A stretch of 64,000 nt of DNA, taken from NCBI GenBank assembly GCA_043228905.1, contig JBHGNT010000017.1, positions 10,788,001 through 10,852,000 of the forward strand, in the 5' to 3' direction. Within the stretch, counting starts at the first letter, position 1. Each line of letters begins with the position of its first letter. Below, piece after piece: positions 5,607 to 62,312 of the stretch. The position numbers were made by a program, and so were the translations under genes. The notes below the pieces were generated by a model, which was not told where the DNA came from, searched no databases, and saw nothing but the letters and a program-made list of their open reading frames with translations. The stretch is from Azolla caroliniana (lineage: Eukaryota > Plantae > Polypodiophyta).

Positions 5607-7017
5607 CCATCGGCTCCCCCTTTCTCCTTTCCGAAGTGTCGAGAATTCTTCGAGAAGTGCCCCGACTTTCCACAGTAAAAGCATGTTGGCCTTCCCCTCG
5701 ACTTCGACCTCGTCCCCATGTTCTCTCGGTTCTGGGGACTCCGATTGCGGCCTCTCCCTCTATGTGTATCCCTTTCTGTGACTAGGGCCTTCGGATCGAA
5801 AATTGCATCCTTGTCCTTCCGACGAGCTTCCTCATTCAATTGGTTCAATTTCACCTTCTCTAGGGTCAGATGCTTCCCTTCCAGTTCAGCAAGTCCCAAT
5901 GTGACACCAAGTGTCTCCCAACTATCTGGAAGGGATCCCTGCAAAAAAGGTGCTAATATCTCGTCGGCTAGAGGTACTTCTAGAGAGGTGGTCTAATTGA
6001 TATATACTTGGAAGGCATTCGTGTGCTCTACCATACGAGAGCCATCCTGATACTTGAGTCTCACAATCTTTCGGAAAACTATGACTCTATTTACATCATT
6101 TCTGTTTTCGAACATGATGTTGATCTTCTCCCAAAGGACATATGCTTTGTTCTCATCATCAAATTTGTTGTATAGACTCATTTCTATAAAACACCTGATG
6201 TATGTTGTTGCCTTTAGATGCAACACTTCCTAGGTCGATGCATCAATCTTGTCCGGCTTTTTACTTCCGAACTGTACTGGCAACCACAGATCTTTGCATA
6301 CAAGCATATCTCTCATCTTCGATTTCCACACTGAGTAGTTGGAGCCGGTTAGATTGAACATACCCCCAAATAAATCTTCCATTTTTCTAAGTTATGCTCT
6401 GAGACCAGCTTGTTACTAAAAACGGGAACTCAGCCACAACAGAGTCAAATGCGGAATGGGTATAAGCAAATACAAATAGAAACATAAATGAAAGTACACA
6501 AGATATTAACATGGAAAACCCTAAATCAGGTAAAAACCACGTTTGCCCAGATACACCGAACAAATCACTCGAAGAGAAAACTACAACAGGACAACCTCAC
6601 AGGCACCGACCTGAATTTGTACTCTTGGCCAACAAGCGGTTACAATAGAGATGATTTGGCTCTCTCTTGCTTCGTCTGTTGTGTTGCAAAGGCAAAGACC
6701 TCGCATGTGTTGTACACTGTAACACAGACCATTCTCTCTACAAGATAAACAAGAAAACTGAACCAGATAAACATAATGTTTTCCCTAGTTATCTTTATAC
6801 TTAGATAACTTTCAGACCATTAACATAACTGACCCAAGTAGGCTCGACTCAAAACCTATTTACATTTTTTACCTTCTTTCCGGATACTCATTCAGACTTC
6901 ATTCGGTTTTGGAATGGATCCATTTGATCCATCTCAAACTTCTCCGGCTTCCGACTAGGTGTCACATTATCCTCTATCTTTAATTTGGCCCATCCAAAAG
7001 GGACATAATTTTCAACA
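5607..7017 (-). mobile_element. Ty1/copia (Tnt1/Tork-like) 5' fragment: LTR 6411-7017, PBS 6396-6407, decayed gag with CCHC knuckle
   Basis: PBS TGGTCTCAGAGC is a tRNA-iMet variant. Gag motifs are SLPDSWETL, LLNEEARRK-like and CFYCGKSGH. Confidence 0.85.
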
Positions 7018-7093
7018 AAAGGATGATAGCAATGTGAAAGTGCCAACAAAACGGGAATGTTCGTGTCGAGGCAGATACACTAACTGAAGGAGA

Positions 7094-24521: not shown

Positions 24522-24753
24522 ATTACGTGTGCGTGGAGGCCGTTACATCAAAACATATCAAATTAATTCTCTGTCCCTTCGGACAGAGATACGCGTCGAT
24601 TTCCTAGCTAATAAATATGTCATACCTAGTATATTTACATGAGTCGTCCTATTCCTAGTTATGTACAATGTATCAATTCGCGCACACTCGTGCAAGGGCA
24701 GGTTCACGCCTTAAATTTCTTGATTCCTCTGAGGGCCGGTTTTCTTCACGACA
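24522..24753 (-). mobile_element. LTR fragment of the TGTCG..CGACA family
   Basis: Its reverse complement aligns with the start of 25130-25757 (tgtcgt..aaaa..ccc, aatcga.gcgtatc.ctgtcc). It is flanked by ACGT. Confidence 0.7.
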
Positions 24754-25129
24754 ACGTTGGCTATCGCGACAAGTGAGTAGGAATTGCTACTCATAAGTGA
24801 GCAAAATGAACTAAACCTTATCGACATGGTTAGTCGATTTGGGTACATCATTCCACCTAACCCCTGATAGAAAGTACTTCCCATCCTACAAGGCGGGAGA
24901 GCACGACCTTGTAAGGATGGGAAATGAAGGTGAATGCCGAATTGTGAGCATTGGAGATGTGTGCGTTGTAACGTCGATTGGGTGTCAACTAGTACTGAAA
25001 GATGTCTGACACGTTCCAGAGGTTCGACTGAACTTGATATCAGTCGGACGGCTAGATGACGAAGGTTGCACGAATAGCATATGGAATGGATTCATGAAGT
25101 TCAGCAAAGGGAGCTTAATTGTGGCCCGA

Positions 25130-25484
25130 TGTCGTAGAGAAAATCGTCCCTAGGCAGAAACCGGGTATAACGTGCGTAAACTGGCCCTTACACGTGGGCA
25201 CAAGTTTTGTTGTATATTGCGTAGATAGGTACAAGTCGGCTGAGGTGAAATCCTAGGTAGCACGCATTCATTGGGGAGAAAATCGAGGCGTATCCCTGTC
25301 CTTTCGGACAGGGAATAAACATGATGTAACGGGAATAAGGTTATCGCGTTTTGTGGAGGACGAAGTGCTGCCGGACTGGAACCAAGCTCTTCTCCTCTGT
25401 CGTCTCTATAGTCGTTCTGTGCAGGTTTTCGGGAGGCTGACTTTGCTCCACGGAACGCCCGAGTGCTTCCGGTAGAGTCTCCAT

Positions 25485-25521
<37 letters not shown>

Positions 25522-25757
25522 GCGTCGGAGCCTATCACTCGTCGACTTGCCGGTTGCAACTCCTTGATTTATATATAGATATACATTCGTTCTGTCTCCA
25601 TCGTTCAGAGTTAGTTGCAACTCCTGTGAATCTGTGTGTTTGTGCGCGTGTGAAGTACATCGGTAGTTTCCTTCCCCTCTTCTCATTCGGTTATTTCTCG
25701 GTCCAAGGCCCCCGTGGTCCCGCCTCGTTCTCCACGCATGCGCGTAACAACGCGACA
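25130..25757 (+). mobile_element. Solo LTR (TGTCG..CGACA family), 4-bp TSD CCGA
   Basis: ccga|TGTCGT...CGCGACA|ccga, with a (TG)n run inside. Confidence 0.88.
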
Positions 25758-25898
25758 CCGAGCCTGGAGGACGAGCATATTGTACTTAATGCACGCACGG
25801 ATATGTCGGTCAGAAGTGAATGTGGCAACCAACGCTGATAGTGTCGACACATTGTGTCACATGAGTGAGAGGGAATGCAAAGACTTGACGATTAGAAC

Positions 25899-26322: not shown

Positions 26323-29300
26323 ATTAAAACCTCATTCCGAAGGTGAAGATCGTGCAACTCGAGAAGTGCACCGATTTCTTGGCTGACAAACAGAACAAGA
26401 CCTCTTTCCAAACCCGAACCCCGATTAGGAAGATGTTGAGCGGACAAGCTCAACATGATCTGGATTGGTTGAATAAGCCAAGAGCTAGATCGGTGTCCAG
26501 ATCGGTGAGCCAGATCTAGGAGCCGGATCGGAGAGCCAGACCCATATGCAAACAAGTAGGTCGTTAGTGGCCTACACTCCTACTCTATTAGTTAGTTATG
26601 GTTCTAGGAGTTAGTGTCATAGCTCAATACAAGCATTGAAGTGCTTGTTAGTACTTATGTTAGTCTTTTTAAGGACTTGTATAAAAAGTGCTTTAAAGCA
26701 CATTTGTATGTATAGAGTTCATAGAGTATTTTTTGAAATAGAGTTACTGTTCTACTCTCTTTGTCTCTCCCGCGTACTCTCTGTGTATTCTCAAGCTTTC
26801 TATTAGACCTTCATTCTGTTTTCTGTTGATATTTGGCAGAACCGGTTGTGTCAACAAGCTTTTGCACACTATTCTTTTCATGGTATCAGAGCACGAGGGT
26901 TAAAACATCCTCTGTTGCTAACAAGAGTTGTAACACAGACGAACCCTAATACTTGGTAAGAAAAGATAGAAGAAGAAATGGATAGAAGTGTGGCAAGCTC
27001 ACTTCCGATGGAGAAGCTCAATAGGAGTAGCTATGCATCTTGGTCCTACAAGATGCACCAGTACCTGTTGGGGCATGACTACTAGAGTTTTGTCGAAGGA
27101 GCAAACGAGGTAGCACAAGAGCTGACACACAAGGACTTCCCAGCATGAGAACAAGGAGCGAGCATAGTTTTTACTACCTCATGTCCTGTGTGCACGACCA
27201 AATGCTCGACTACATTTGAAACCAAACCCGAAAACATCGAATGAAGTTGGGAGAATCTCAGAAAGATTTTCAGTGCCAACACCACGGCCCGGATGTTGCA
27301 GCTCCTGCAAGAGCTCGACAATGTCTAACAAAGGGACATGTCATCCACCGACTACACCACGAATATAAAGGAGATCTGTGATGCACTAAGTTCCATCAAC
27401 GTGACGGTGGATGAAGATGAAATTGTGCATATCTGCCTCAGTGGTCTAGCGTAGAGGTATGGACCAATTCGGATGGCAATATGCACCCAAGAGAAGCCAT
27501 TGTCCTTCTTCGACTTGTGATTGATGCTGATTGTCTAAGAAAACCACACTAGTGGGTCGAGGAACACTCATTCAGACAACCAGATGCTAAACATGAAAGC
27601 GGATCGGCCCCGTGGGCGTGGAGGAAGAGTTGAATTGGCACGCAATGCAAGCGTCCAACAAGAGAAGGAAAGAAGGCATAGAGGAAGTGCCGACAGTAGT
27701 TCCGAACCCTCCACAACCAGGAGGAGTCAAGGCGGCACCAGAAACCAACAATCAAAGGCTGAAACGGAATGCTAATACCGTGCCAAGAAAGGCCACTGAG
27801 AGAGCGAGTGTTGGCAGAAGCGTGCTGATTGGGAAAAATCTGGATCCGACAAGTCTGGACAAGGGAGTCGACACAACTCGTACTACGTTGAAAGATCTTA
27901 AGGATCCGGAACCCGAAAGACTGAAAACGGGCCAGCTTTTGTGATAAAGCACAAGGTGAACTCGATGAAGAAGATCCCCTCACAATCAGATGAAGCGCAG
28001 TACGTTGGCTCCGGAGCATCAAATCATATGATGAGCCATGACGAATGGTTCTTATACTTAGAGAAACCGGCGCAACCGGGAATGATCCAAACCAGAGATG
28101 ACACTCTGCACCGTATCAAACATGTCGGAGAAGTTCTCCTCAGCCAGGTCGAACAAAAGGGAAAACTTATGAACATGTTGCATGTTGTCGCGAGGATGTG
28201 TGTGTATGTGTGGTTAGCTTGAACGTGACCACAAGGATCTCGGACCAGGGAGGACGTCCGTCAAGTTATTGAGAAGAGGAAGATATGAAAGTAAGGTTTG
28301 AGCAAACAATGCTACACTTCAGAAGATTGGAAATTTGTACACTCGAGAAAAAGATAAACATAAAGAATAATAAGAAGAATGTTGAGAGATAAGCTCAACA
28401 TTGGGAGCGTAAACGGGTGCGTAACCTAGTGCGTAGATTGGGTACGTAAAAACGTGCACAAAATATGGTCGTAGTGGTATATAAACCAAGAAGCCATTAG
28501 AATGTTATTCCTCATAAGGAATAATTTTGGGAGTACATGTAGGATGCTCATTTATGAGCAGACAGGTACTATATGTACTTGTGTCAGCCTGATAGTCAGG
28601 GCTTGTATAAAAGGTACTCACTGAGCACCAAGCATGTACAGAGAACATACAGAGAATTATTTTGAATATAGTTTTGTATTTTCTGTGCTCTCTCGCGCTT
28701 TGTCTCTCCCTCTTTCTTTGTGATTTCTGTGTTTTACCAAACTGTTGTACTTCTGAATCGTGTACTTTGTGCTCTACGCATACGCTTCCGCACACATATT
28801 CTTAACATGGTATCAGAGCGCGAGGGTTGAGACTCCTCTGCAGCCGACAGAAAAGCCTGTGATAAAGACAGAGTTAAGTTGTTATTTTTGGAAAGGATAA
28901 AACAATATGGACAAAGGAATTGGAAGCTCGCTACCGACTGAGAAGCTCGACAGGAGCAACTATGCATCTTGGTCGTAGAAGATGCACCAATATCTGTTGG
29001 TCATGGTTACTGGAGTTATGTCAAAGGAGCTAATGATGTAGCACTGGAATCAACACACAGAGATTTTTCGGCTTGGGAACAAGCGGCTACAAGTCAGACA
29101 GGAGCTCAGCAATGTTTGGCAGAAAGATTTGTTTATGGCCAATTACAAGGCCCGAATCAAGGAGATCTGTGACTCTCTCCCCTTCGTCAACGTGAACGTC
29201 GAGGAGGATGAAATGGTGTAGGTTTGTCTTGGTGGGTTAGCGTCAATGTTCGGAGTGTTCCGGACGGTAGTCTACATAAGGGAGATTACGTCTTTGTTCT

Positions 29301-29601
29301 TCGTGCTTCAGTCGATGTTGCTCGTGGAGGAAAATCACGCTGGTACGTCAACGAGTATGCACACCGACAACAAGATGTTATACACGTAGGAAGATAGGCC
29401 CCATGGTCATGGCGTGTCGAATACAAGTGTATAATGGACGTATTCACACTATCCCTTTCTATAGATCAAGTTTGGGCCATTTGTGTAATTAGCATAAATG
29501 GTAGTTGCCCTAAGTCGATCACTATATATAGTGACCTTGTAACCTTTTTGTAAGGTTGGGTTGTATTATTGTTTCTATTGAATAGAAAGAGTATTTTGTG
29601 C

Positions 29602-29642
<41 letters not shown>

Positions 29643-30424
29643 ACGATCTCAGAAACTGTCATACGCAGGTACTCAACCAGAATCGAATGCTACTTGATCT
29701 TCCGCATTGACGGCCTTGTCTACAACATTTGGTATCAGAGCCTGCACAGTATTCGGTCCTTCAACCCGCTATCGGCCGTCGTCTCAGCCTGCACAGCATT
29801 CGGTTTCTTGCGTCATTCGAAGAAGAGAGAAGAAGAAGAAAAACGAGGCTTGCATCTCATCGCGTTAGATCATCTTCGCCTAGAGTAAGCCAGCCGGTTG
29901 TACTCTGTTCCTTGTGATCGTAACCGCTCGAGGTGAAATCCCCTTGTGCAACATTGACACGATCGTGCTCCACTCGGTTAAACGGCATCCGAAGAGGTCA
30001 TCAAACGCTGCTCGCCACTCATTGTAACCACTCGGTGCAGATCGGTCTCAAGACAACAACCCAAATTCGTGCTTCATCCGGCTGATCGACATTCGGGAGG
30101 ATCAGTTGGATCCGTCTCTCTCGTCGCTGCAGTCACCCGAAGCAGAATCGGTCCAGACAATCGGTTTCAATAATCGGTATTTGGCATATATATTCGGAAG
30201 CGAACCGGGCTCACTCCGACTCGGCAACATTCGGGAAGACCAGTCGGTTCTGTCCCTCAAGTCACCGGAGTCAATTCGAGCAAGTTCAACAATACATATA
30301 TCCGAAGCCGAACCGACTCGGGTTCAAATCCGACTAGAACGATATCGGGTGAGCCAACCAGCTGCACTCCAACAAGGTTCGTAGTCAACTCCGAACCGAG
30401 CTTCGTCAACCGAAACCAAATTTG

Positions 30425-31164
30425 ATGGCATCAACATCCGGCTCGTCAGAAATGAGTCTACGAAAGTTCGATGGATCGAACTTCAACTTCTGGAAGGAGC
30501 AAACGCGCCACGATTCGGATGCACCTATCGGAATCGGTATACTTTACGGTGCAATCGTGTACGACAGCATTCGAACTGTGGAAAACACTGTCGGACACCT
30601 ACGAAAAGAAGGTCGCTGCGACGAAGATGTTTCTGATCCGGCGCCTCTACAACTTGCGGATGAAAGAATCAGATTCGGTTCAAGCACATCTCAATGAGTA
30701 CGAAAGCATAAGCTCCCAAATCTCATCTCAGGGGACGGCAATCGAGGATGAACTCAGAGCAATGATACTCATGAGCAGCCTTCCCTCATCATGGGAAACT
30801 TTCGTCACAACCGTGTGCAACGCACGCGTCAACCACGGCTGTTAAATACTCCGAAGTCACGAGCGCAATCCTGACCGAAGCAGCTCGGAGAAAGTCTTTC
30901 GCCAAAGACTCAACAGACGACGCTTATGTAGTACAAGGTTCGACAGAACGATCGAACATACGAGGAAGAGATTCCTCACGGCAGCCGAACAATCAGCGAA
31001 GACGGAGCCAGTCACGGGATAATCGAATCTGCAACTATTGCAAGAAACCCTGACACATCAAAGCCGACTGCCGCGCACTCAAGAACAAGAACGACAAGTC
31101 TCAGAAATCAGACAAGAAGAGTGGCCGGCATGAGGAGATCAATTACGTCAGCTTCTCAGCTGAT
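30425..31164 (+). pseudogene. Disrupted copia gag
   Basis: MASTSGSS..FDGSNFNFWKEQ jumps by deletion and frameshift to RATIRMHLSES. A second frameshift lies near 30825, and the knuckle contains TGA (CNYCKKP*HIKADC). Confidence 0.85.
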
Positions 31165-34100
31165 GTGCTACCAAACGACCCGAATATACTATCAATCGAA
31201 AATCCAGTCGGATCAGAAGTTCTGCTCACGACTGAAGAATCGAGCACATGGCTCTTAGATTCGGGCGCGTCATTTCACGTGACTCCTCATCGATCCCAAT
31301 TTCGGCAATATACGATCCGTCACTCCGACTCAGTTCGAGTCGGCAACTCGCAACACTGTGACATCATTGGAATCGGCACAGTAGAGCTCAACCTTACAGG
31401 TGGCTCTACACTTGTACTTCACAATGTCCGACATGTACCCGAGCTCTCAAGGCCATTGATCTCAGTCGGACAACTAGATGAAGACGGCATTCGTGCCGGT
31501 TTTTCTTCGGGAGGGTGGACACTCCACAGGGGGAACCTCCTGCTTGCTAGAGGACCCAAGATACACTCACTGTATCCGTTACATGTTACGCTCAGAGAGG
31601 GTAACCTATTTTTGGTGGATATTCCTGTGTCATCACTATGGCACAGAAGATTAGGACACCTCAGCAAGGCCGGCATTACGCACCTATCTAGAGCCGAATA
31701 CATCCCTAAACTCTCCTTCTCGGACCATCAATTCTGCGAACATTGCCAGTATGGCAAACAAGCAGCCACATCACACCCGACTTCAGCACCAAGAGAAACG
31801 AGACCTCTCGATTTAGTCCACTCGGACGTCTGTGGCCCAATGCCACATCAGTCTCTCGGCGGTGCCTCTTACTTCGTCGGTTTTATTGACGATTCGACTC
31901 GAAAGGTGTGGGCTTATCCAATTCGCACCAAAGATCGTGTTTTCTCGATCTTCTCCGATTGGCTCGCTATGGTAGAAAATCAAACTGACCGAAAACTGAA
32001 ATGCCTTCGGACCGACAATGGGGGAGAGTTCAAATCAGAAAAATTCGTCAAATTCTGCCGACAACGCGGCATCCGACGTGAATTTACGGCACCACACAGT
32101 CCGGAGCAAAACGGGATTGCAGAACGCATGAATCGGACAATCCAAGAACGGATAGTTTCCATGCTCCAACACTCCGGACTGTCGGATGGCTTCTGGGCAG
32201 AGGCTCTACTCACGGCAGTACACATAATCAATATGTCGCCAAGCAGACCTCTAGGACTTCAAATTCCTCAGGAACTATGGATCGGCAGTAAGCCAAATTA
32301 CGACAAGCTGAGGATCTTCGGATGCGAGGCGTACGCCCTTATTCCGAAAGATGATCGCCGAAAACTTGCACCTCGGTCCAGGAAATGCATTTTCCTTGGA
32401 TATGGATCAGACGGCGAAATGGGATACCGACTCTGGGACCCCGAACGCAGACAAATCGTTCGAAGTTCGGACGTTGTGTTCAACGAGTCGGCTATGAATC
32501 CATCCGTCGAAAAACCGATCGAAGTCCGAAGGGTAACATTTTCCGATGTGCCGACCCTTCAAGAAGGCCCCGCTCTTAACACACGGTCAGCTTCACGGGT
32601 AGCTGAACCTTACACCACCGACTCGGACAACTCTGACTCGGCACAGCAGAATAATTCGCTTTCGGACCATCCGACCTCGATACCCGATGCAACCAGTCCA
32701 ATTATACCTCGACGATCCGAGAGACTGTCGCAACCTCCGGAGAGGTATTCTCCTGGAATTTTCTTCACCGACGCCGGCGAACCGACGTCTTACGAAGAAG
32801 CATCGACATCTGTCGATTCAGCCACCTGGCATCTGGCGATGGAGTCGGAAATGCACTCCATTCGGGCAAACAAGACTTGGGATCTGGTCGAACTACCTAA
32901 GAATCGACGTGCTCTTCCTTGCAAGTGGGTTTATCGACTAAAAGAGACGTCTGATTCGACCACCCCAAAGTACAAGGCCAGATTAGTTGCGAAGGGCTTC
33001 CGACAAGAATATGGCGTCGACTTCGACGAGATTTTTTCACCAGTGGTGAAAATGACAACCCTTCGTTTTTTACTCGGCGTAGTGGCAGCCGACAACTTGG
33101 AGCTGATTCAGCTAGATGTCAAAACAGCCTTCCTCCATGGTGATCTTGAAGAGGAAATTTATATGGAGCAGCCAAAAGGCTTCGTGGCAACTGGCCAAGA
33201 ACATCTAGTCTGCCGACTCAGGAAGAGTCTATACGGCCTCAAACAGGCACCGCGACAATGGTACAAGAAGTTCGACGACTTCATCCAATCGATCGGCTTC
33301 TCCAAAAGCGATGAGGACCATTGTCTTTTTACCAACACAGCTCAAGATGGATCACCCATCTTCCTCATCATTTACGTGGACGACATGCTAATTTCTGGAC
33401 GCCACGCGGGCGAACTTGCCGATCTCATTCGGCAACTGCGGTTGAAGTTTGCCATGAAGGACCTCGGTCCGGCACGACACATACTTGGCATGAAGATTAG
33501 TCGGCATCGCGATAAACGACATCTTTTTTTGTCTCAGACCGACTATATCGGACGTGTCTTGGAACGCTTCAACATGCAATCAGCCAAATCTGCTTCAACC
33601 CCGCTCCCCATGAATCTTCGGCTCTCTCAGCGAGACTGCCCGACATCCGGACCGGAGGGGGAAGATATGAAGTCGGTACCGTATGCACCGGCAGTCGGCT
33701 CCCTTATGTACCTGATGGTCGCGACACGGCCTGATATCTCTCATGCCGTAGGAGTCGTTAGCAGATTTATGCACAATCCTGGCCGATCGCATTGGAACGC
33801 AGTCAAGCATGTGTTCAAATATCTGGCTGGCACAAAAGATCACGGCATTCTTTTCGGTCCGAACTCAACCTCAGGCGTAGTCGGTTACACCGACTCGGAC
33901 TTCGCCGGCTGTATAGACAGTCGGAAATCAACAACCGGATACTGCTTCAAATTCGGCAATGGAACAATTTCGTGGAAGTCGAAACTTCAGGAGTGCACAG
34001 CGACCTCAACGACCGAAGCAGAATATGTAGCTGCGTCCGACGCTGCAAAAGAAGCTTTGTGGCTCGGCCGGCTGGCGCACACGTTTCGGCAAGTCGACCA

Positions 34101-34784: not shown

Positions 34785-37700
34785 TGCACGATCTCAGAAA
34801 CTGTCATACGCAGGTACTCAACCAGAATCGAATGCTACTTGATCTTCCGCATTGACGGCCTTGTCTACAACATGGCGGACGAGGCGAATCGACGCTCAAT
34901 GGAGGCGGCCGAAAAGAGCAGAATGTGCAGCATAATCAAAATGTCGGAAGCAATTATGAATCCTCCGGAAGTAGGGGGACCCATAGCCGTGCCGGAAGCT
35001 GGCAAGAGAAGGTTGTGATGGAATGCTGGTACTGTGGCAAGAAGGGCCACAGGAAGAGCGAGTGCTGGAAGAAGCGAAACGATTCAGACAAAGCAGAATC
35101 GAGCGGAAGAGATGCAGGAAGTAGTCAGAAATCGCACTATGCCAAAGGCTTTGAATGAGCCGTAAATTGATCGGGCCCAACCTTTGTAATGAAGCACAAG
35201 ACCAATTCAATGGTCGTGGACACCTCAAAATCGAGCGAGGTGTGGTATGTTGAATTCAGGAGCATCAAATCATATGACGACGAGTCATGAGGAATGGTTC
35301 TCATACTTGGAGAAACAGGAAAAACAAGGAGTGGTTGAAACAGGAGACGACACTCCGCATACCATCGAACATGTCGGAGAAGTTCCTCTCAGCCATGTCG
35401 AGCTGAAAGGGAAGCTTATAAACGTGTTGTACATCTTGACAATAACCAAGAACCTAGTGTTGGTCCGTTAGATCGTCGACCAGGGGATGCAAGTTTGATT
35501 CACGCACCTCAGGTGCTACATCAAAGAGAAAGGGCAAGTTATAGTGCAAGTGTGCCGTGGAGGGAGGATGTTCATCCTCGACACCAATCAAGCCGGAACC
35601 CTGCACTGTTCGCTAGAGGACAGAAGGTCGTGTCGGAGATCGATCTGTGGCACAAGCGGTTCGGCCATGTTAACTTCCCATGGTTGCATGAAATGCAGAC
35701 GAAGAACATTGTTTTCGGCTTGCCGAAATTTCGGGGCTGTAATGGCCAAGTCTGTGAAGCCTGCCAACTCGGGAAGCACCATCGACTTCCATTCACCAAT
35801 GAGTGTAATCGGAGTCAATATCCGCTAGATTTGATCCATTCGGATGTGTGGGGACCGACACAAAACGTGAGTCTTGGTAGAAGTTGTTACTTCGTAACCT
35901 TCATCGATGACTTCACTCGGCATACCTAGGCGTGCTTGATCGCAAAAAAGAGCGAAGTCTTCGTGTGGTTCCTGAAGGTGACAAACCTTGCGAAAGGGAA
36001 ACATGGCATAGGATCAAGTGCTTATGGTTTGATGGCGGTAAGGAGTACTTCTCTGACCAGTTCACGAGTTATCTACAGAAGGAGGGAATTCGACGCGAAT
36101 TCTCAGGTAGATATACGTCGGAGCAAAACGGCGTAGCCAAACGGAAGAATCGGACAATTAAAGAAGCGGCCAGGGAGATGCTTGAAGAGAAGCATATGCC
36201 AGGGCAATGCTTGAGGGGTTGGGCCAAAATGGTCAACCAAATGAAGAGCCGGCGAGTAGTGGAAACTCGGCCGTGTTGTCCCCGCGTAAAGAACCGAGGA
36301 GAAAGTTCACGCGTAAAGAAAAAGGGAAGAACAAAATGTCAGAATACGATTTCGGTAGTGCCGAGTTAGATCAGAGCGAATTTGACTTCCGGCCAATCGA
36401 GAAGGAAACTCCACGGAAGGGGTCAAAATTGACCGAAAACGTCGTGGAATCGGGTAATCATGAGTAATCATGAATTATTCCAATCTACCTACCTGACAAA
36501 GCTTGTAAAGAGGTATGGGTACAATGAATACATGTCGCACCATTACACATACATGACACGAGTGGCAGAAGAGCATGAGCCATAGAGCTACGCAGAAGCG
36601 GTGGAAGAGGCAAACTGGCGTACCGCGATGGAGGAAGAGATGTGTGCATTATTGGACAATGAGACTTGGGGGACCTGCTTGACGCACCGAAGGGTGTAAA
36701 GCTGATCGGATGTAGATGGGTGTATAAGTGAAATACAATACCGACGGCTCCGTCAATCGATATAAGGCCCGTTTGGTTGCGAAAGGCTACACGCAAAAGC
36801 ATGGTGTCAATTACGACGAGACCTTCGCTCCTGTCGCGAAGATGACTACCGTGCGAGTTTTGCTAGCTGTAGCTGCAGCGAAGGGGTGGGATCTACATCA
36901 GATGGATGTAAAGAATGTGTTCCTACAAGGTGATCTTGAGGAACAAGTGTACATGGTATAGCCCCCCGGTTTTCTATCCGAACGGAACACTTTGATAGTT
37001 TATTGATTGATGAAGTCATTATACAGCCTTAAGCAAGCCCCACGACCTTGGAACGTGAAGATTATGCAACAGTTGCGTAGAATGGGGTTTACAATGTCCA
37101 AATCAGACTCCTCGTTGTTCGTTCAGCAAGGTCGACATGGACCGGTTTGTCTCTTACTTTATGTTGATGCTTTAGTCATCGCCGGTGCCGATCAGGAAGA
37201 AAACGGCCGTGTAAAGTCTCTGCTTGTGGCATCGTTTGAAATGAAGGATCTTGGTGACCTTCATTACTTCCTCAGGATCGAAGCGATTCGTTCCCCTGAA
37301 GGCATATTGATCAGTTTGCGTCATTAAGTGCTGAATATGCTCTTCAAGTTAGGCATGGCAGATTGTAAGCCCATCTCGACCCCTATGGATAGAAACCTAA
37401 AGCTTCGCCAAGATTCGGGAAAGGTGTGCGACCCGACACAGTTTTGACAAATTGTCAGAAGCCTCATCTGCTTGACGATCACTCGGCCGAACCTCAACTA
37501 TCCGGTCGGAATGATTAGTCAATTTATGTCACAGCCCATGACCGAACACTTCAGTGCGCACAAAGGATATTACGATATGTCAGCGGCACAAAAGACATGG
37601 CGTTGTTGTCTCGTGTAGACATAGTCGAGCAGTTAGTCGGCTACACGGATGCTGATTAGGCTGGAAATGCCCACGATCATAGATCCACATCCGGATACGC

Positions 37701-39038
37701 ATTCTCATTGCGAAGTGCGGCGATCGCGTGGAGCAATAAGAAGCAACCGATAGTAACACTATCGAACACAGAGGCCGAAAATCGAAGGGCAACTGTCGCT
37801 ATGTGCGAAGTCATTTGGCTTAAACGACTATTACGGGATCTGCACGTAGGTGTGTCTGATCCAACAAGGATCTACTGCGACAACCTCAGCAGCATCCATC
37901 TTGCGAAAAATCATGTATTCTACACTCGGACCAAGCACATTGAGGTGCACTACCATTTTGTCCGCGAGCGTGTCCTTTTTGGTGAAGTCGAACTGGTGTT
38001 TGCTTCGACGGGTCGGCAGATTGCCGACACCTTCACCAAGCCCCTTGGTCTCGACAAGTTACGACATTTCTTGGTTGAGCTGGGGGAGACAAGCTACAAC
38101 ACCTAACTTGAGGGGGAGACAGGAACAACAATAGGAGCGTGAAAGAAACAACAACGATGCCGAATTAGATGAAGAATTTGATTTCGTGTTGGCTGAAGAA
38201 GCCGAAGAAGAAAACAAGGGCCTGAAGACAAAAGACGAATTGGAGACAACCAATTTGCGTAAAAGTGAAAGTGAATCGGAAATGTCCGATTTAATCGAAA
38301 TGTTTGATTTGGACATTACGAATTGACTGAGGCCAAGCGGAGGAAAGGGCAGCGAAAGAGGCACCAACACCGCTACCGCAAGGGAGCTGAGAAGGGCCAC
38401 ATGAGCAGACAATTTGACCGGAAGGGTCGAAGCGCACGGAATCGAAGGGGTCGAGGAGCGCGAGCGAGGCGTGAAGCTAGGAGAGGCCAGAGCGAAGATC
38501 CGGAAAAGCATATGGAAACTCAAGTTGAGCTTGAGGGGGAGTGTCGAGAGACAAGCACAACATTGGGAGCGTAACCCAGAGCGTAGACTAGGTACGTAAA
38601 ACCGTGCACAAAATATGGTCGTAGGGGTATGTAAACCGAGAGGCCATTTGAATGTTATTCCTCGTAAGGAATAATTTTGGGAGTAAGTGTAGGATGCTCA
38701 TTTATGAGCAATCATGTACTGTAAGTACCTGTGTCAACTTGATAGTCAGGGCTTGTATAAAAGGTGCTCATTGAGCACCAAGCATCTGCAGAGAACATAC
38801 AGAGAATTATTTTGAATATAGTTTTGTATTTTCAGCTCTCTATCTCTCCCTCTCTTTCTTTGTGATTTTTGTGTTTTACCGAATAGTCGTACTTCCGAAC
38901 CGTGTACGTTGTGCTCTTACGCATATGCTTCCGCACACGTATTCTTTACAAAGATGAATATTATATTGATGGTGATGATGATGATATAACATATTGAGCC
39001 CCCCTTTACACACTCTCTACTAGGGTTTGATAGGTTTG

Positions 39039-39723
39039 TGTCGAGAAATCGTTGCGGAATAGAGCACAATAAACGAACTACGCGCTGAAATACGAATCAC
39101 AGAAATGCCAGAAAAAACAAGACACACAACAGTGCACAGAGATTTACATGTAAACCCTAAAACAGGGAAAACCATGGGTGTACAGAATCTTCACTATACA
39201 AAGTGGATATACAACACCGAGAGGAATACAACACTCTATCGAGTGTATCAGCTGCACAGGGCTCTTCGCATCTGTTGTTACTCACACAGCTATGGCACAA
39301 CTCACACACCCACTCTCTCTCACGCTCTCCTAGACACTACAACTTCTGTTCCTACTCTGTTCATCACACACATAAAGTTTGCCCTAGTTGTATATATACT
39401 TACACAACTTTTTGGCTATTTACATACATAGCCCTCATAAGTATAGTCACCCAAGTTGGCTATTTACACGATTCTGGTTTTGGCCTCGGCCGAGTCACTC
39501 ATCAACTCGGCTCCTCTCTCTTTCCCATCTAAAGGGACTTGTTTCCACACATCATCATTATTATTATTACTATAATAATAATAGTCAAATCTTCAAACAA
39601 TCGACTCATTGTTTTCGACTCTTCGACTATCTGCTTTCCAAACAGTAAGATCTTCCCTGTCATCGACTGTCGGCTTTCCGATCAGTCGGTTCTTCCTCCC
39701 ACTAGAGGGACATATTCCCAATA
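39039..39723 (-). mobile_element. Solo LTR (Tork-like copia), TSD GTTTG
   Basis: gtttg|TGTCGAG..cccaaTA|gtttg. It shares the gatttaca..aaaccctaaa..gggaaaacca motif with the LTR at 6411-7017. Confidence 0.8.
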
Positions 39724-40267
39724 GTTTGTTCATGCATAAAACCATGGGCTAAAACTATAGTCTTGTGCACATGGTTTTGCTTATGACATGCACAAATCAT
39801 AGGTTTAAACCATGGTTTGGTGCACATGGTTTTATACGTTTGTATTTAATACTAAATATGAAAATAAAATATACAAAATCTACAACATTTAGTAGTAGTC
39901 TTAGTGGTAAGTCAATTGTCTCCTAATCTTGAGGTTCAAGGTTCAAATCTTGCTTGCACCTCTTTCTATGCACTTAGCCTTAAGCTGATTTATTTATTTA
40001 TTTTCCTATTTACAAGTGTGTGTGTGTGTAATGTGCGTGGAACCACACTTTGTTTCCCTTTTTCACGCAGTGGACATGCCACATCACGATAACGTTCCAA
40101 CAATCACAAAGAACCTGATATCGTTCGAGCAAATTGTCGACTAGGGGTTGCAAGTTCAATTCACACATCTCGGGTGCTTTATCAAGGAAGAGAGCCAAAT
40201 CATCGTGCAAGGGCGCTGGGACGAGAGAATGTTCATCCTCGACACCAACGACGTTGGCACCACATTT

Positions 40268-51039: not shown

Positions 51040-52766
51040 AGTGTAACCGGTTTGGCGCGAAAGTGTTAAGTGACAGGCAAAGAAGGTATGCCCAAGTGAA
51101 GAGGGAGCTATGGGGGATTGTCTCGGCAATCAAATTTGATCGTGATTACCTTATTGGAGCAGAAGTCATAATTGAGACAGATTGCCTACCAATTTTGGGT
51201 ATGATATCTGGTTGCAATACACCGGATATTGCCATGTTGCGTTGGATTGCATATATCAAATCACTCAACCCGGAGATCCGTCATGTAGCTGGGAAGCGTA
51301 ATGTCGTTGCAGACATGCTATCACGAGCGAGATACGACGGAGAAGAAGATCGACATTCTGATGAAGATGATGTTGGCCTGGATTTCTTTGCAAGTTCCTA
51401 TGCTCGGGTGTTGATTACTTTCATAGAAGAGGACTACGAAGGCGAATTCGTGGAGATCGGGAAATACTTGAGTTCTCTCCAAAAAGATGAATCATGGTCG
51501 ACGGAAGACTTCCATCGAATTCGGAAGAAAGCATACAAGTATTTCCTTAAGGATGGAGCTCTTTGGAAGCATGCAAAAAAGAAGAATGGGACTCCGATGA
51601 GAGTTGTCTGCAAGCTAGAAGACCAACAAAAACTAATGTCCGAATTTCATGATAGTGTTTTTGCAGGCCATCGAGGAATATGGGCTATGTTTGTGAATCT
51701 TAAGGAGAAATATTGGTGGCCGGGCATCTACAAAGATGTAGCAGCTTATGTGGAAACATGTAAGGAATGTCAAATGTTTTCGAATATTCGCCATCGAGAT
51801 GGACTTCATCCGACTTACCCGTTGGCTATGCATTACAAGTGGATGGTGGACATAGTGATGATGCCAATGGGACGATGGCAGATGAAGTATCTTGTGCTCG
51901 CGAGAGAGGATCTTACCAATCAAGTTGAAGGGCGAGCATTAAGAACTAAGGAGACATCATCGGTATGTCGATTCCTTCTTGAAGATGTTATTTGCAGATA
52001 TGGATGCGTCGGCAAGATAGTGGCTGATAGAGGCGAGTTGGACGCCAATGAAGCTAGAGAATTCTTCTCGAGGATGGGAATCAAATTATCTCTTACCATG
52101 GCGTATAATTCGGAAGCAAATGGGAAGGTGGAGCATGGACATGGACCGATTGTGAAGGCTCTAGTGAAAGCTTGCCATGGGAAAATAGGAGAATGGCCAC
52201 GTCTATTGCCATTTGCATTATGGGCTGACAGGACTACTCATAGCACGGTGACGGGATACATGCCGGCAGAGCTCATATTCGGACAAAAGCCAATAATGCC
52301 GGTAGAACAAAGTATTATTTCATGGTTTGCATTGCCATGGCAAGATGAGATAAGTAGAGAAGATCTTCTAGCATTGAGGATTCGACAATTAGAGCGGAAT
52401 TTGGAAGATGTAGAGGTGGCTAAAGCGCGGCTAAAGAATGCAAGGCTAAAGAACAAGAAAGACTTCGATAAACGACATCGACTTCGGCCGAGGAAAATCG
52501 TTGAAGGAGATTGGGTGCTAGTCTATGACAGTAGCCTAGATAACCAACATACTACGGCTCGAAAATTCTCACAACGATGGTTTGGGTCATATGTGGTGAA
52601 GAAAGTGGAAGATAATGCAACATATCATTTAGTAGAACTAGATGGTACACCACTTGCCTTGCCAATTGCCGGTAAAAGAATCAAGATCTTCAAGAGAAGA
52701 GATAGAATAGAAATTGGATTCGAAGCTTTTGACGATTCAGTCTTAAGCATCGATGAAAAAGTATAG
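51040..52766 (+). pseudogene. Ylt1-like Ty3/gypsy RNase H-integrase fragment (no chromodomain)
   Basis: RYAQVKRELWG, ETDC, VADMLSR, H..GHRG..C..C, WMVD, ADRGE, ANGKVE, ALWADR and WFGSY. It is 5'-truncated. Confidence 0.85.
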
Positions 52767-52833
52767 TAAACAAAAATGAATCCTCACTAAAATTGGCACA
52801 TACCGGTGGATGTGCAGGTTTGGTGGGGGTGCA

Positions 52834-54123
52834 TGTCGTGTGAATCTTCACACACTATGTAAAAAAATAATGAAATAATTATTATAGATTAGATTAGTAT
52901 CTTACTATAGAAAGATGGATATACTCAAGAGCTTCAAAACGTATTTTACTATATACAAAATGGAGAAATACATATCAAGTTATGTGAAAATGAAGTTTGA
53001 GAATATAGGAAAATTAGAACTATCCCACATAGATAGGAAACTTAAGGCCCTGGCTATATAGGCACCTTGAGCTCCCTCATTTTTCATTTGTGCTAAGAGC
53101 ACTTTGGCCACTTTGTCTTGATGGATGATGGTGGCCAAAATCCTTAAAACTGGAAATCGGCCAGTAAGCAAATCCGGAAAATGGGTCCGGTAAGCAAATC
53201 CGGAGAACGGGTCCGGTAAGCAAATCTGGAAACGGGCCGGTAAGCAAAACCGGAACCGGAACGGGTATGCAAACCGGAAACCGGCCGGCAAGCAAAACCG
53301 GAAACCGGCCGGTAAGCAAAACTGGAACCGGAATCGGCAAGCAAATCGGAACCGGAATCGGCAAGCAAACCGGAACCGGAACCGGCCGGCAAGCAAAACC
53401 GGAACCGAAACCGGCAAGCAAACCGGAACCGGTCGGCAAGCAAAATCGGAACCGGAACCGACCGGCAAGCAAAATGGAACCGGCTACCGGATGATGTTGG
53501 ACGCGGACGGACGAAAGATTGGATCATGCAACAAACTAAAGTAAAGTGAAGAGAACTAAAGTAAAGGCCATGTGGACGCAAGCAACTAAAGAAGGGAGTG
53601 CATGGAGAAAGTAAAGGTCATGTGGACAGTCACATGCAACCAAAAGAAAAAGCTAGGCAACTAAAAGTAGAGGCCATGCAACAAAAAGTGAAAAAGTTAT
53701 GATCAAGGGAGAACTCCATTTTTATTCCATTTTTTTTCCTACACTAGGATAGACTCTCCATATTATTATTATTATTTTTCTTCTCAACTCCCTTATCTTA
53801 GGGAAGCCATAACTCTCGAAAACCCTAAAATTCCCTACGGAAGCCATAATACTCATATAACCTAATCCTAATCTTCCCTACGGAAGCGATATCTCTCAAA
53901 ACCCCTAATTTTTTTCTTTTCTATTAATCTTAGTCAACCTAAAACTTCTAAATCCCAATCTTGGGACATATTGTAATTTCTTTTTCCTTTGTTAATGAAA
54001 ATTATTAAATTTCTTCTTTCTGTTAATTGTTAAAAATATAAACGCACACATGTGATTATCCTTCGGTCGGAGGCCCCGGGGTCCTGCCTCAAGTTCGCGT
54101 ATCCTCGTCGTATTTTCGCGACA
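52834..54123 (+). repeat. 3' LTR of the TGTCG..CGACA (Ylt1-like) element
   Basis: A G-rich tract precedes TGTCGTG at 52834. The LTR ends CGCGACA|ccgc. Confidence 0.8.
53150..53490. repeat. CCGG-rich minisatellite (aagcaaaaccggaaccgg) inside the LTR
   Basis: More than ten irregular copies are visible. Confidence 0.9.
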
Positions 54124-57100
54124 CCGCTCATGCACAAAGTGATAGTGGACTTCTATGTGCTTTGTCCGAGCATGGAACATGGGGTTCTTGGCAAGCTGAA
54201 TGTTGCCCATGTTGTCATAGTAGATCAGGATCGGGATAGGTACCTCAATCCGTAGGTCTTACAGTAGTCGCCAAAACCAGATGGCTTCACACGTGGCATT
54301 GGTTGCGCCTCGATATTCAGCCTCAGTGCTCGACAGAGCCACTGTTGGTTGCTTCTTGCTGCTCCACTCAACAGCCGCGCTTCCTAGAGAGAACATGTAA
54401 CCAGAGGTGGATCGGCGATCCGATGCATCACCGGCCCAGTCGGCATCTATATATCCAATTAGCTCTTCGGTTATACCATGCCGGTATAACAATCCCTGGT
54501 CCTTCGTGCCGCTCACATACCAGAGTATCCAGTGTGTGCACTGAAGGTGCTCGACGGTTGGTTTCTGCATGAACTGGATGATCACTCCGATCGGATAACT
54601 GATATCAGGTCGAGTGATTGTCAAGTATATCAGGCTTCCGACAATTTGTCGGAACCGTTTCTCATTACAGGCCGGTCTGGAGTTGGGACAGAGCTTCTAG
54701 TTCCGGTCCATGGGTGTGGAGACAGGCCGACATTCCAGCATGCCAAACTTGTACAACATATTCAACACATAGTGTCGTTGTGAGAGCAATATGCCGTCGT
54801 GGGTTTAGATGATATCGATCCCAAGAAAATAATGAAGGTCCCTCGGGTCGTTCATTTCAAATGCGTCCGACAGCTAGGACTTTACTCGGCCGATTTCATT
54901 GAGTCTGGGTCCGGTGATGACTAAATCATCAACATAAAGTAGGATGCAAACCAGACCATCCGGACCTTGCCAAATGAACAAGGAGGAGTCGGATTTAGAG
55001 GTCACAAACCCCATCTTATGCAACCGGTGCATGATCTTCGCATTGCAAGCTCGGGGCTTGTTTCAGACCGTAAAGCGACTTCTTAAGCCAGCATACCGCT
55101 GACTTTTTCATCTCTGACTGAAATCCGGGGGGTTGGATCATAAAGACCTCTTCTTGAAGGTCGCCTTGAAGAAACGCATTCTTCACGTCCATCTGGTGAA
55201 GATGCCACCCCCTTGTCGCAGCAACCGCCAATACCACACGAACCGTCGTCATCTTCGCTACCGGAGCAAAGGTCTCGTCGTAATCGATTCCGTGGGTCTG
55301 AGCATATCCCTTCGCCACTAACCGGGCCTTGTACCGATTAACCGAACTGTCGGCATTGTACTTTACCTTGTACACCCATTTGCAACCGATCGGTTTACAG
55401 TGTCGAGGAGGGTCAACGAGGTCCCATCCGTCGTTGGCATCGAGTGCCTGCATTTATTCTTCCATAGCGGCATGCCAATTTGCGTCCTTTTCCGTTTCTG
55501 CGTAGCTCTCTGGCTCACGCACTTCCGCCACTTTGGTCATGTACGCTTAGTGATGCGCCATGTACTCATTGTACCTGTACCGGATAATGGGGTTCTTCAG
55601 GCGGGAAGACCGGTGTAACTTGTCATCACCCTGTTTGGGGCCCTTCTTGGCTGGTTCGGACTTCGTTCCCGAAGATCTGCCTTAATCCTTTCTGGAGTCG
55701 GATTCGCTCTAATCCGAGTCAACGTTGCCGGTTTTGTATTCCGGCATCTTCTTCTTCCCCTTCTCTTTGCACGTGAACCATCTCCTCGGTTCCTTGCGCG
55801 GGAGAGCACGACAGAGTCTTCACTACTCACCGGTTCTTCATCCGACTGGTCATCTCAACTCAGCCGCTCATTCAGTCCACTGAGCCGGAATGAGATCAGA
55901 CTCTCTTCCAGAGTGCCGAAGTCTTCATCTTCTACCTGGACCTCCTCGGGCTCACTAGCCTCATCTTCCGGAATTGGGTCTTCGTCGGGAGTTGGAATTG
56001 GTAAGGAGTACCATGATGTCGTCTCATCAAAATCGACATCCTGGCTTACTTGGACCTGCTTAGTCCGGGGGTTATAGCACTTATACCCCTTCTGCTCATG
56101 CGAGTAGCCGACTAGGATGCATTTCTCTAACTTCGGATCTAGCTTCTTTCGCTTCTCATCCGGTACATGCACATATGCTATGCTACCGAATATCCGAAGG
56201 TGTCTCAAATTCGGCTTCCGCCCGAAATACAGCTCATGTGATGACACCTTGTCTCCGATCCGGTTTTGGATGTAGACGGCCGTCCGGACCGCCTCAGCCT
56301 AGTAGAATTGGGGCATGCTCTTCTCCTCTAGCATTGCCCTTGTCACGTCGACAATCAACCGGTTCTTCCTTTCAGCCACACCGTTTTGCTTCGGCGTGTA
56401 TCTGCAGCTGAATTCGCTCCAAATTCCGTTCTGCTGCAGATAACTATTGAATTGGCCGGCATTCGACCGCAAGCACTTGACCTTCCTCTCCGTTTCCCAT
56501 ACATCCGAATGTATTAGATCGAGCTTGTTACGACTCCGGTTTCGTTCAATGGGGAATGGAAGCCGATGTTGCTTCCTGAGTTGTCAGGCTTCACAAGTTT
56601 CGGCCTTCGGGCCCCTAAATTTCGGCAAACCGAAGACAACTTGTTTCGATTGCAGGTCCTAAAGCCTCCGGTACTTGACGTGGCCGATCCACTTGTGCCA
56701 CAGGTCGATGTCTGACAAGACCTTTTGCCTTTTGGCAAACATGGCAGTGCCAACGTCATTGGTGTTGAAGATGAACATCCTCCCTTCTTTGCACCCTTGC
56801 GCAATTATCCGACCTTCTTCCTCTATGAAGCACCCTAGGTACGTAAATTGCACCTGCATCCCCTGGTCGACGATTTGTCCAACTGACACCAGGTTCTTTG
56901 TGATAGTCCGAACGTGTAGTACGTTCATCAACTTCCCCTGATGGCTTAAAGGGACTTCTCTGACATGCACAATCGGGTGAGGGGTGTCGTCTCCAATTTC
57001 GACAATCCCCGGTTGTTCCAACTTCTCCAAAAAGGAGAACCACTCTTCATGGCTCGTCATGTGGTTGGACGCTCCGGAATCAACGTACCATACTTCCTCT

Positions 57101-60300: not shown

Positions 60301-62312
60301 TCCGAATTGGCATGCTTCGCACACGCCCGTGATCTCCTTTGCCGTAAAGTTCGGGAGTCCGATTACGACTCCTTTTGTCTGCATATTCTAAAGCTTCTGG
60401 AGATTGATATGGCCGATTCTCTTGTGCCACAACTTTAAGTTGATTTCGACTTTCCGGCCTTTTGCGTACATGGCTGACTTTATTTCGCTCGACTCAAGGA
60501 TGAACATACGGCCTTCTCATTTACCGTGAGCTATGATTTGATCGCCTTTTTCAATGAAGCACCCATCATTGTTAAAGCGTACCTACATTCCTTGTTCTAC
60601 AATCTGGCCGATCGAGACCAGATTTTTCGTGATGGTGGGAACATGCAGTACGTTCTTGAGGTAGGTCTATTCGCCGTCGTTTCCGAAAGGGACATTCCCG
60701 ATATGTTGTATTGGATGAGTTGTATCATCACCTGTTTCGACATATCCGGGATGTTCGGGCTTCCGTTGTCGCGTTGTTACACGTGTGAGTGTAGAAGGGG
60801 CGGGACCACCGGGGTCTCGGACTAAGGAGTAGAGGAGAAAGAATAAGATATGTTTGGAAGCTTAGCTCAAGAGGAGAAGAAGAGAGAATAGGATCATGAC
60901 AAAGAAGGAGAGATCGGCGGAGGTAAGATACTCAACAAGATATATTAAAACAATGAATGGTTACAACAATGGTGGCCACATGGGCCGCACCAAACGACTA
61001 TGAGAAAACCCTAACCGAAGATGAATAAGGAAAACCCTAAACGAAACCCTAACCCTAAAATGGTAAGAACTCTAGACTAAGTGGTATACCTCTCATACGC
61101 AAAATAGGAAACCCCTTCATAAGTGACCCCTCCCTTCCTTTTATAGCCCAAGGAGGGAGGGACCTTACAATGTGGAATAAAATTTCCCCTCTTATTTCTA
61201 TACACCATTTCCTAGTATACATGTGCACATGTTGCACACCACCGACTTGCCCATTCCACCCCGATTTCACACCGTAGCCGGAAATTTTCACGACACCGTA
61301 ATTCTCGAAACCAATCTTCATGCGAAGTCATCTGATTGGAAGCTCCCGAATCGACAAACCATACACTATTAGGAGTGGAGGTGCTGGTTGTCGCAAATGC
61401 AGACATCGAGTGTGCTTCATGCTTCATTATGAACATTCTGCCACGATCGCCGTAGTTAGAGTTTGTGGCATAGTTCGTGAGTTGTTGGCCTGCCTCACGT
61501 TTCTTCTTCCGGCACTCTTCTTCGTAGTGGTCGGGTTTTCCGCAGTACCCGCACTCGACTGGGTTTCAGCGATTGCTCAGTCCGGCGTTATGACTCCCCC
61601 TTCCGCCAAGCTCTTTGGGCCCGTTCTTGTCCGCTTGCCACTGGTGGGAGTTATGCCCTTGATTCCGTCGATCATTATGGCCTTGTCCAGAACGACCTCT
61701 GTTTCCATGGCCAAAATCTCTTCTATTATCCGACTGGGAGTAGAGCAAATGACCATCTGATGCGTTGTTCCTCTATCGAGCGTGATTCTCTTCAACCAGC
61801 AATATCGATTGAAGGTCGAAGAAGGAGGAAGGGTTATCCCTTGCGAGAATAGCCGATCTAATTGCACCGAAACACGGTGCTAAGCCTCCGAGGCATATCT
61901 GCACTAGTTCGTCATCGTCAATGACGACGTTGATCGATCCGAGGGCGTCACATAGCTCCTTGATCTTCAAGGTATAGTTGCCGATTGACATGTCCCTTTG
62001 TTGAAGATTGTTCAGCTCCTGTCGAAGTTGGAGCTTTTGTGCGGCCGTATTGGCCGCGAAGATCTTCTTGAGGTTTTCCCACGCCTGCTTCGGCATTTTA
62101 GCCTCTCGAATGTAGCCAAGCATATGATCATGAACGCATGATGCAAGGCAATACAACACATGGCTTGCGGCCTGCTCCCAAGTGGGATAGTCAGCGTGTG
62201 TTGGGTTGGGGTGTGATTCATGAGCTCCTTCGGTGTAGCTCCAATAGCCTTGTCCGACAAGATATTGATGCATCTTGTATTCCCAAGATGCAAAGTTCGT
62301 TCAATCGAGCTT
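57194..62312 (-). mobile_element. Nested copia element lacking its 5' LTR (3' LTR 57194-57496)
   Basis: Gag 61773-62273, integrase remnants, RT/RH ORF 57586-58836 and PPT 57497-57505. Confidence 0.85.
60767..61295 (-). mobile_element. Solo LTR (TGTCG..CGACA family), 4-bp TSD CCGT
   Basis: ccgt|TGTCGCG...CACGACA|ccgt. Confidence 0.9.

What the first reader, a model, noticed from the sequence alone, without database searches (positions are those of the whole stretch)
5607..61299. Gypsy family inserts only into 4-bp NCGN (CpG-centred) targets
Seen: every visible junction of the TGTCG..CGACA LTR family has a central CpG or its deamination product. These are CCAT (5607-5610), ACGT (24754-24757), CCGA/CCGA (25126, 25758), ATGT/ACGT (28182, 40092), CCGC (54124-54127) and CCGT/CCGT (60763, 61296). 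TSDs are 4 bp, whereas the other LTR elements here make 5-bp TSDs with no common motif. All six targets are inside copia coding DNA. Inference: the integrase (51040-52766, no chromodomain) recognises CpG, possibly methyl-CpG, which would steer insertions into methylated TE chromatin. Knowledge (recalled): 4-bp TSDs are reported for fungal Ylt1. The sample is only six junctions.
Basis: partly seen in the sequence, partly recalled or inferred. Interest (0 to 1): 0.72.

Follow-up and report, generated by a model that had tools for sequence, protein, structure and literature searches.

The report
Phygy-type retrotransposons inserting at CpG sites
These plant jumping genes insert almost only at a four-base site with CG in the middle, a real habit already published for the moss "Phygy" retrotransposons to which they likely belong, and nothing found here shows that DNA methylation guides them.

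Summary
All six junctions are at the stated places. Five are NCGN and one is a transition variant (P about 4e-6 against 5.9% CG in local copia DNA). Only three have both TSD copies, so 4-bp length is shown for three. An independent test agrees: a pattern made only of LTR-internal sequence gave 63 unique genomic junctions in metagenome contigs, 55 CG-centred and 6 TG/CA, against 3.5% background. The property is in print: Neumann et al. 2019 give the Phygy clade (186 Physcomitrella elements) 4-bp NCGN TSDs, a tRNA-Trp PBS and no extra domain. These elements fit the features I could test; phylogenetic placement against Phygy references was not possible. Corrections: the six copies are about four diverged families of one lineage, and copia-coding hosts are not general (11 of 59 flanks). 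Refinement: the motif is nearer VCGB, ACGT commonest, TCGA absent. Most likely mechanism (inferred): a foamy-virus-like integrase cutting 4 bp apart, bending the central step and reading CG directly. Methyl-CpG reading is untested and less likely.

The parts
4897..5606 (-). Element A: 5' LTR (starts TGTCGTG at 5606; 3' end decayed, boundary approximate)
   Evidence: 78% to LTRs of L079/L048/L041 and 76% to element D
4874..4891 (-). Primer binding site of element A (TGGTGAACCCGATGTGAA)
   Evidence: one transition from the commonest PBS of the loci, 22 of 30; complement of an abundant CCA-ended plant small RNA; tRNA-Trp identity is recalled
4050..4873 (-). Decayed gag region of element A, cut by a nested element whose pieces match the chromovirus-type gypsy; left boundary approximate
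   Evidence: 79% to the region behind the PBS of L079/L048, which matches the N-terminus of the lineage's polyproteins; no direct tblastn hit at E 1e-3
5607..5610 (+). Target site CCAT (one side only), in copia gag
24535..24753 (-). Element B: truncated LTR (5' part only)
   Evidence: 74% to LTRs of L059 and L025
24754..24757 (+). Target site ACGT (one side only), in copia gag-protease region
25126..25761 (+). Element C: solo LTR 25130-25757 with 4-bp TSD CCGA/CCGA
28182..40095 (-). Element D: solo LTR of about 650 bp (28186-40091) split by nested copia 28380-38950 (itself holding copia 29415-34872) and a solo LTR 39039-39723; TSD ATGT/ACGT
51048..52766 (+). Element E: RNase H and integrase coding region (HHCC, DDE, C-terminal domain; no chromodomain); upstream part of the element missing
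   Evidence: Pfam; 95% to P0001, 55-67% to full-length Riccia polyproteins; PDB and fold matches to foamy virus and Ty3 integrase
52817..52829 (+). Polypurine tract of element E
   Evidence: same GGTGGGGG tract before the LTR in outside loci
52834..54123 (+). Element E: 3' LTR, 1290 bp, with a 24-bp tandem array at 53146-53483
54124..54127 (+). Target site CCGC (one side only), in copia RNase H
60763..61299 (-). Element F: solo LTR 60767-61295 with 4-bp TSD CCGT/CCGT

Best explanation
These are LTRs and fragments of a non-chromovirus Ty3/gypsy lineage, likely Phygy, that inserts with a 4-bp duplication centred on CG, likely because its integrase itself reads that sequence. Shown: 4-bp TSD, CG centre, VCGB sub-motif, conserved PBS and PPT, no chromodomain. 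Inferred from foamy-virus intasome work: two active sites cut 4 bp apart, which needs a sharp bend at the central step and favours pyrimidine-purine steps with T and A avoided at the TSD edges. Inferred: base contacts narrow the choice from any such step to CG, with the conserved loop in the C-terminal domain (DSSLDNQH..RKF) as the first candidate. CG-rich mobile DNA is then hit often because CGs are denser there and insertions are tolerated, without need for methyl reading. TG/CA centres would be later deamination.
For: 55 of 63 unique outside junctions are CG-centred and 61 of 63 are CG/TG/CA, background CG 3.5%. Left-end junctions: 7 of 8 CG, the eighth TG. CG is only 14.8% of pyrimidine-purine steps in the flanks but 55 of 62 such centres (P 3e-38), so bending alone is not enough. 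T at position 1 is 3 of 61 and A at position 4 is 2 of 61 against 33% expected in CG context; G just outside is 27 of 61 (P 1e-4): selection extends to bases that carry no methyl mark. The same edge avoidance is reported for 4-bp retroviruses (PMC4422553 passages). Best structural matches are foamy virus and Ty3 integrases. Foamy virus Arg329 in the CTD beta1-beta2 loop makes base contacts (PMC4005685 passages); the matching loop here is conserved across 37 relatives (the correspondence is inferred, the profile alignment did not reach it). Drosophila ZAM integrase binds CGCGCg in vitro (PMC2527525 abstract). Phygy table: 186 elements, 4 bp 100%, NCGN, tRNA-Trp 81%, no extra domain. Insertions also occur at CG in AT-rich flanks (18 of 23 flanks under 40% GC).
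Against: No biochemical or methylome data. All six window hosts and at least 30 of 59 outside flanks are mobile DNA, which a methyl preference also predicts. Phygy reference proteins could not be read, so membership rests on features, not on a tree. Most outside contigs come from one series of assemblies and may represent few host species. L001 has unmatched ends (ACGT left, CCGC right), and 2 of 63 junctions (TGAA, CTAA) fit neither CG nor one transition from it. The residue aligned to foamy virus Ala188 is acidic in 36 of 37 relatives, whereas a compact residue is the retroviral rule, so the foamy-virus model may not transfer in detail.
Confidence: 0.68

Rival explanations
1. The integrase or a cofactor prefers symmetrically methylated CpG, so insertions are steered into silenced mobile-element chromatin.
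For: Strict CG at the dyad centre. All six window hosts and at least half of outside flanks are mobile DNA. TG/CA variants (6 of 63) show that target CGs get deaminated. Phygy was the commonest nester into Tcn1 among repeated pairs in Physcomitrella (PMC6911290 passages).
Against: No chromo, MBD or SRA match. Mobile elements are 57% of the Physcomitrella genome, so about half of flanks is no enrichment if this host is similar. Flanking CGs become methylated after any insertion (general knowledge), so deamination says nothing about the state before. ZAM reaches CG-centred specificity in a fly, where CpG methylation is scant (recalled).
Confidence: 0.15
2. CG choice comes from DNA shape alone (flexibility and stacking of the CG step in a VCGB context), with no base-specific contact.
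For: Central pyrimidine-purine steps are favoured by all four 4-bp retroviruses studied; edge avoidance of T/A matches.
Against: TA, CA and TG steps are 85% of such steps in the flanks yet hold only 7 of 62 centres, most explained by deamination.
Confidence: 0.14
3. The NCGN is an artefact: part of the LTR end, a choice of junctions after the fact, or local CG richness.
For: The termini themselves contain CG, and the first sample was six junctions in CG-rich copia DNA.
Against: At internal junctions the same termini abut the PBS spacer (mostly TCTT or TATT; 31 loci) or the PPT spacer (CGGA, CGAA, TGGA, TGCA), not a variable NCGN. The search pattern held no flank base. Five pattern hits without LTR similarity gave 1 of 5 CG. 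Paralogous empty sites fix the 4-bp length.
Confidence: 0.02

Closest known systems
Phygy clade, non-chromovirus Ty3/gypsy (Neumann et al. 2019, PMC6317226)
   Same: 4-bp TSD with NCGN preference, no chromodomain, PBS that I recall as tRNA-Trp, non-seed-plant setting.
   Different: Described there as specific to Physcomitrella patens; here relatives occur in Riccia (liverwort) and Adiantum (fern) proteins, whose targets I could not see. The motif here resolves to VCGB with G often next. No tree with Phygy references.
ZAM of Drosophila (PMC2527525)
   Same: Ty3/gypsy integrase with a CG-rich specific target (CGCGCg) bound in vitro.
   Different: Retrovirus-like insect element of another lineage, with a longer and stricter motif.
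Prototype foamy virus intasome and other 4-bp retroviral integrases (PMC4422553, PMC4005685)
   Same: 4-bp stagger, central pyrimidine-purine step, T/A avoided at TSD edges; best fold match.
   Different: Only a weak preference among such steps; here about 87% CG. Acidic residue at the Ala188-aligned position.
Selgy and TatI (Neumann et al. 2019)
   Same: 4-bp TSDs in non-seed plants; TatI also uses tRNA-Trp.
   Different: No NCGN preference reported; Selgy uses tRNA-Ala; TatI carries an extra aRH domain, not seen between RNase H and integrase here.
Fungal Ylt1-like Ty3/gypsy (PMC2864245)
   Same: Non-chromovirus; a fungal protein (Smittium, 39%) is among the more distant relatives.
   Different: No Ylt1 reference was compared, and its TSD was not found in the passages read.

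Membership tests
Phygy | Clusters with Physcomitrella Phygy elements in RT/RH/INT trees | not testable with these tools
   The paper's element table and protein FASTA are too large to read. My tree only shows the integrase in a clade with Riccia and Adiantum proteins (99% SH-aLRT, quick tree), apart from the window's two other gypsy integrases.
Phygy | 4-bp TSD | tested here: met
   3 of 3 two-sided window copies; L061 ACGT/ACGT; L001 unmatched
Phygy | NCGN target preference | tested here: met
   5 of 6 in the window, 55 of 63 outside
Phygy | tRNA-Trp primer binding site | tested here: inconclusive
   A conserved 18-nt PBS is present and is the exact complement of a CCA-ended plant small RNA listed as miR894 and mapped to gypsy PBS. 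That this RNA is the tRNA-Trp 3' end is recalled; ARAGORN on 120 viral loci did not confirm it.
Phygy | No chromodomain, no aRH, no extra ORF | tested here: met
   No chromodomain after the integrase and nothing between RNase H and integrase; stop codon then PPT within about 50 bp. The 5' half of element E is missing, so an upstream extra domain is not excluded in this copy.
Phygy | Element length 7.7-10 kb | not testable with these tools
   No full-length copy in the window or in the fetched loci
Chromovirus (Tcn1, Galadriel) | C-terminal chromodomain | tested here: not met
   the window's chromovirus integrase (10938-12491) is far away in the tree
Tat (TatI) | aRH domain | tested here: inconclusive
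   None between RNase H and integrase in element E; Pfam lists of the complete relatives show none, but Pfam may not separate aRH

The most novel reading that the evidence does not exclude
The Phygy-type integrase reads 5-methyl-CpG directly at the centre of its target, a chromodomain-free way of steering insertions into silenced DNA, through a lineage-specific target-binding surface (acidic residue at the foamy-virus Ala188 position, conserved DNQH loop), with a slight orientation bias between the two LTR ends.
Probability: 0.12. Interest if true: 0.75.

Novelty: new member of a known kind. Interest (0 to 1): 0.24.

Why it matters
The headline is already published, so the finding mainly adds members and detail: a sharper motif (VCGB, TCGA avoided), relatives in liverwort and fern proteins, and candidate residues. 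It is the one plant LTR lineage reported with a sequence-specific target, and my searches turned up no test of how it reads CG. If it read methyl-CpG, it would be a new link between DNA methylation and insertion choice. If it reads plain CG, it is a tidy model for how an integrase gains dinucleotide specificity.

Tried and rejected
No whole genome is held, so no genome-wide logo. Loose ends from laid contigs gave no usable set of extra junctions. The PBS complement in viral contigs gave chance hits and no tRNA-Trp call (1 tRNA-Met in 120 loci). Rfam found nothing in the window. The Atlas gave only generic Ty3/gypsy clusters for the stored relative P0001. Pfam on 90 open frames drawn from the 29 unassigned flanks gave only sub-threshold hits: zf-CCHC in L041, RVT_1 in L061, coiled-coil families in L052, and RPN2_N in L074, which I rejected as a host-gene claim after reading the frame. 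tblastn did not link element A's gag directly to the polyproteins; the link runs through L079/L048, and 5 of 16 PBS loci gave no gag hit. The careful tree did not finish; the quick tree is reported. Orientation bias (13 versus 4, P = 0.049, chosen after looking) is kept as a hint only. The Cryptococcus preprint passages had nothing on CG-centred TSDs. Earlier scan findings: none by words or by sequence.

Full report
Setting. The window is a nest of LTR retrotransposons: several copia copies, a chromovirus-type gypsy (integrase with chromodomain, 10938-12491), a young 8.5-kb gypsy (13952-22445, LTRs 99.7% alike), and the lineage in question. No whole genome is held. Named relatives of the lineage's integrase are from Riccia and Adiantum, so the host is likely a non-seed land plant.

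Observation. In element orientation the LTRs begin TGTCGT (TATCGT in D) and, where the end is intact, finish CGCGACA behind a shared GGTCC..GGTC motif. Three copies are solo LTRs with both TSD copies: C (25130-25757, CCGA/CCGA), D (28186-40091, split by later insertions, ATGT/ACGT) and F (60767-61295, CCGT/CCGT). A 4-bp repeat fits each, 3, 5 and 6 bp do not, and the host coding sequence runs on when one copy is removed; a paralogue shows that D's site was ACGT. Public contigs show a related empty site with a 4-letter overlap at F in 2 of 4 runs and bridge D's left junction in 3 of 4 runs. A, B and E are one-sided. Against 5.9% CG in copia coding DNA, 5 of 6 strict CG has P = 4.2e-6. Four other LTR elements have 5-bp TSDs with no motif.

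One lineage, several families. A and D are 76% alike, B and C 71% over 100 bp, C and F share only their 3' ends, and E matches none of them by blastn. They are tied together by termini, PBS, PPT and coding links: 11 of 16 PBS loci with enough sequence match the N-terminus of the lineage's polyproteins, 3 of 6 PPT loci match its integrase, and A's internal region is 79% like L079.

Independent test. A pattern of LTR-internal bases only found 109 metagenome loci. Of these, 31 run into the PBS and 78 into other DNA. I dropped 5 with no LTR similarity (GC 0.61-0.74; 1 of 5 CG), 1 just under the score cut (ATGT), 1 with three flank bases (CCG) and 8 duplicates, leaving 63. Centres: CG 55, TG 4, CA 2, GA 1, TA 1; flank background CG 3.5%. 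Eight left-end junctions give 7 CG and 1 TG; L061 has ACGT on both sides, L001 has unmatched ends. Among the 61 CG/TG/CA sites, position 1 is A 36, C 16, G 6, T 3 and position 4 is T 31, C 15, G 13, A 2; ACGT leads with 17 when TG/CA centres are counted as CG, TCGA is absent though it is 10% of background NCGN, and the next base is G in 27. Most contigs come from one series of assemblies, so few host species may be sampled.

Host DNA. All six window hosts are copia coding DNA, but that class holds 53% of the available CGs here. Of 59 outside flanks of 60 bases or more, 11 are copia coding, 2 copia LTR, 5 the other gypsy, 1 chromovirus-like, 9 the lineage itself, 2 DUF7869 elements, and 29 matched nothing in a library made from the window and the relatives. 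Thirty of 59 is a lower bound for mobile DNA and is close to the 57% reported for Physcomitrella (PMC7466625 passages). Copia targeting is not supported; targeting of mobile DNA is neither shown nor excluded.

What is known. Neumann et al. 2019 state that Phygy elements have an insertion preference for NCGN, the one exception among plant lineages (PMC6317226; passages, section 9). Their Additional file 5, read whole, lists Phygy: 186 elements, 4 bp 100% (NCGN), 7.7-10 kb, tRNA-Trp 81%, no extra domain. Additional files 1 and 3 could not be read and bear directly on membership. Jedlicka et al. 2019 also find 4-bp TSDs commonest in Phygy and GC-rich centres in 4-bp TSDs (PMC6911290 passages). 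The PBS here (22 of 30 loci identical) is the complement of a CCA-ended plant small RNA listed as miR894 (PMC5846777 passages; PMC3225373 passages); its identity as tRNA-Trp is my recall. Drosophila gypsy-group elements also make 4-bp TSDs with clade-specific motifs (PMC3276498 passages).

Mechanism. The integrase has the three catalytic acidic residues and no reader domain. Its model (mean pLDDT 72.7, pTM 0.52) best matches foamy virus and Ty3 integrases. For 4-bp retroviral integrases, the central step is bent sharply, pyrimidine-purine steps are favoured and T/A are avoided at the TSD edges, largely independent of chromatin for foamy virus (PMC4422553 passages). The edge pattern here is the same. 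Bending alone does not explain the data, since CG is 14.8% of such steps but 55 of 62 centres. I therefore infer added base reading. Candidates are the conserved C-terminal loop that corresponds by position to the Arg329 loop of foamy virus, and the acidic residue aligned with Ala188 (36 of 37 relatives; a one-residue gap lies beside it, so the mapping is uncertain) (PMC4005685 passages). ZAM shows that a gypsy integrase can bind a CG-rich target in vitro (PMC2527525, abstract only). Methyl-CpG reading stays possible but has no positive evidence. Searches (40 of 110 listed) showed no paper testing it; the library lacks most subscription journals.

Verdict. Real, well supported and already described at lineage level. 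New member(s) of a known kind, interest 0.24; a methyl-reading integrase would deserve about 0.75 but has about 12% odds.

Noticed in passing
L064 (locus), left end of the LTR: Two copies of the lineage sit head to head with only ACGT between them: each insertion duplicates the CG target, so a TSD can be hit again.
   Followed up: no
window 42891-45065: Decayed DUF7869 coding region (Pfam E 1.7e-20), likely a DNA transposon; related sequence is the host of two outside insertions (L030, L081). A 500-bp direct repeat (40271-40773, 41978-42501) and a 146-bp tandem array (46079-46742) lie nearby.
   Followed up: partly
window 13952-22445: Young non-chromovirus gypsy on the minus strand (LTRs 99.7% alike, 5-bp TSD ACACC) with gag, protease and pol separated by stop codons and a 589-aa extra ORF after the integrase (14372-16141; only a sub-threshold DUF4200 match), Athila-like by layout (recalled).
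   Followed up: no
window 4874-4891 and 30 PBS loci: The PBS is the exact complement of the small RNA catalogued as miR894 in many plants, which fits that 'miRNA' being a tRNA 3' fragment.
   Followed up: partly
window 51576-52763 (integrase): The residue aligned to foamy virus Ala188 is Glu or Asp in 36 of 37 relatives, although acidic substitution there is reported to abolish strand transfer in Rous sarcoma virus integrase.
   Followed up: partly
L063, L079: PPT-LTR-PBS arrangement (one LTR between two internal regions): tandem elements or collapsed assembly.
   Followed up: no
window 8906-9601: Degenerate tandem array of about 84-bp units (higher-order 246 bp) of unknown origin.
   Followed up: no
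P0098 (distant relative): A distant polyprotein of the lineage carries a precomputed C-terminal PF00628 domain (PHD finger by recall), a possible chromatin reader absent from the window's integrase.
   Followed up: no
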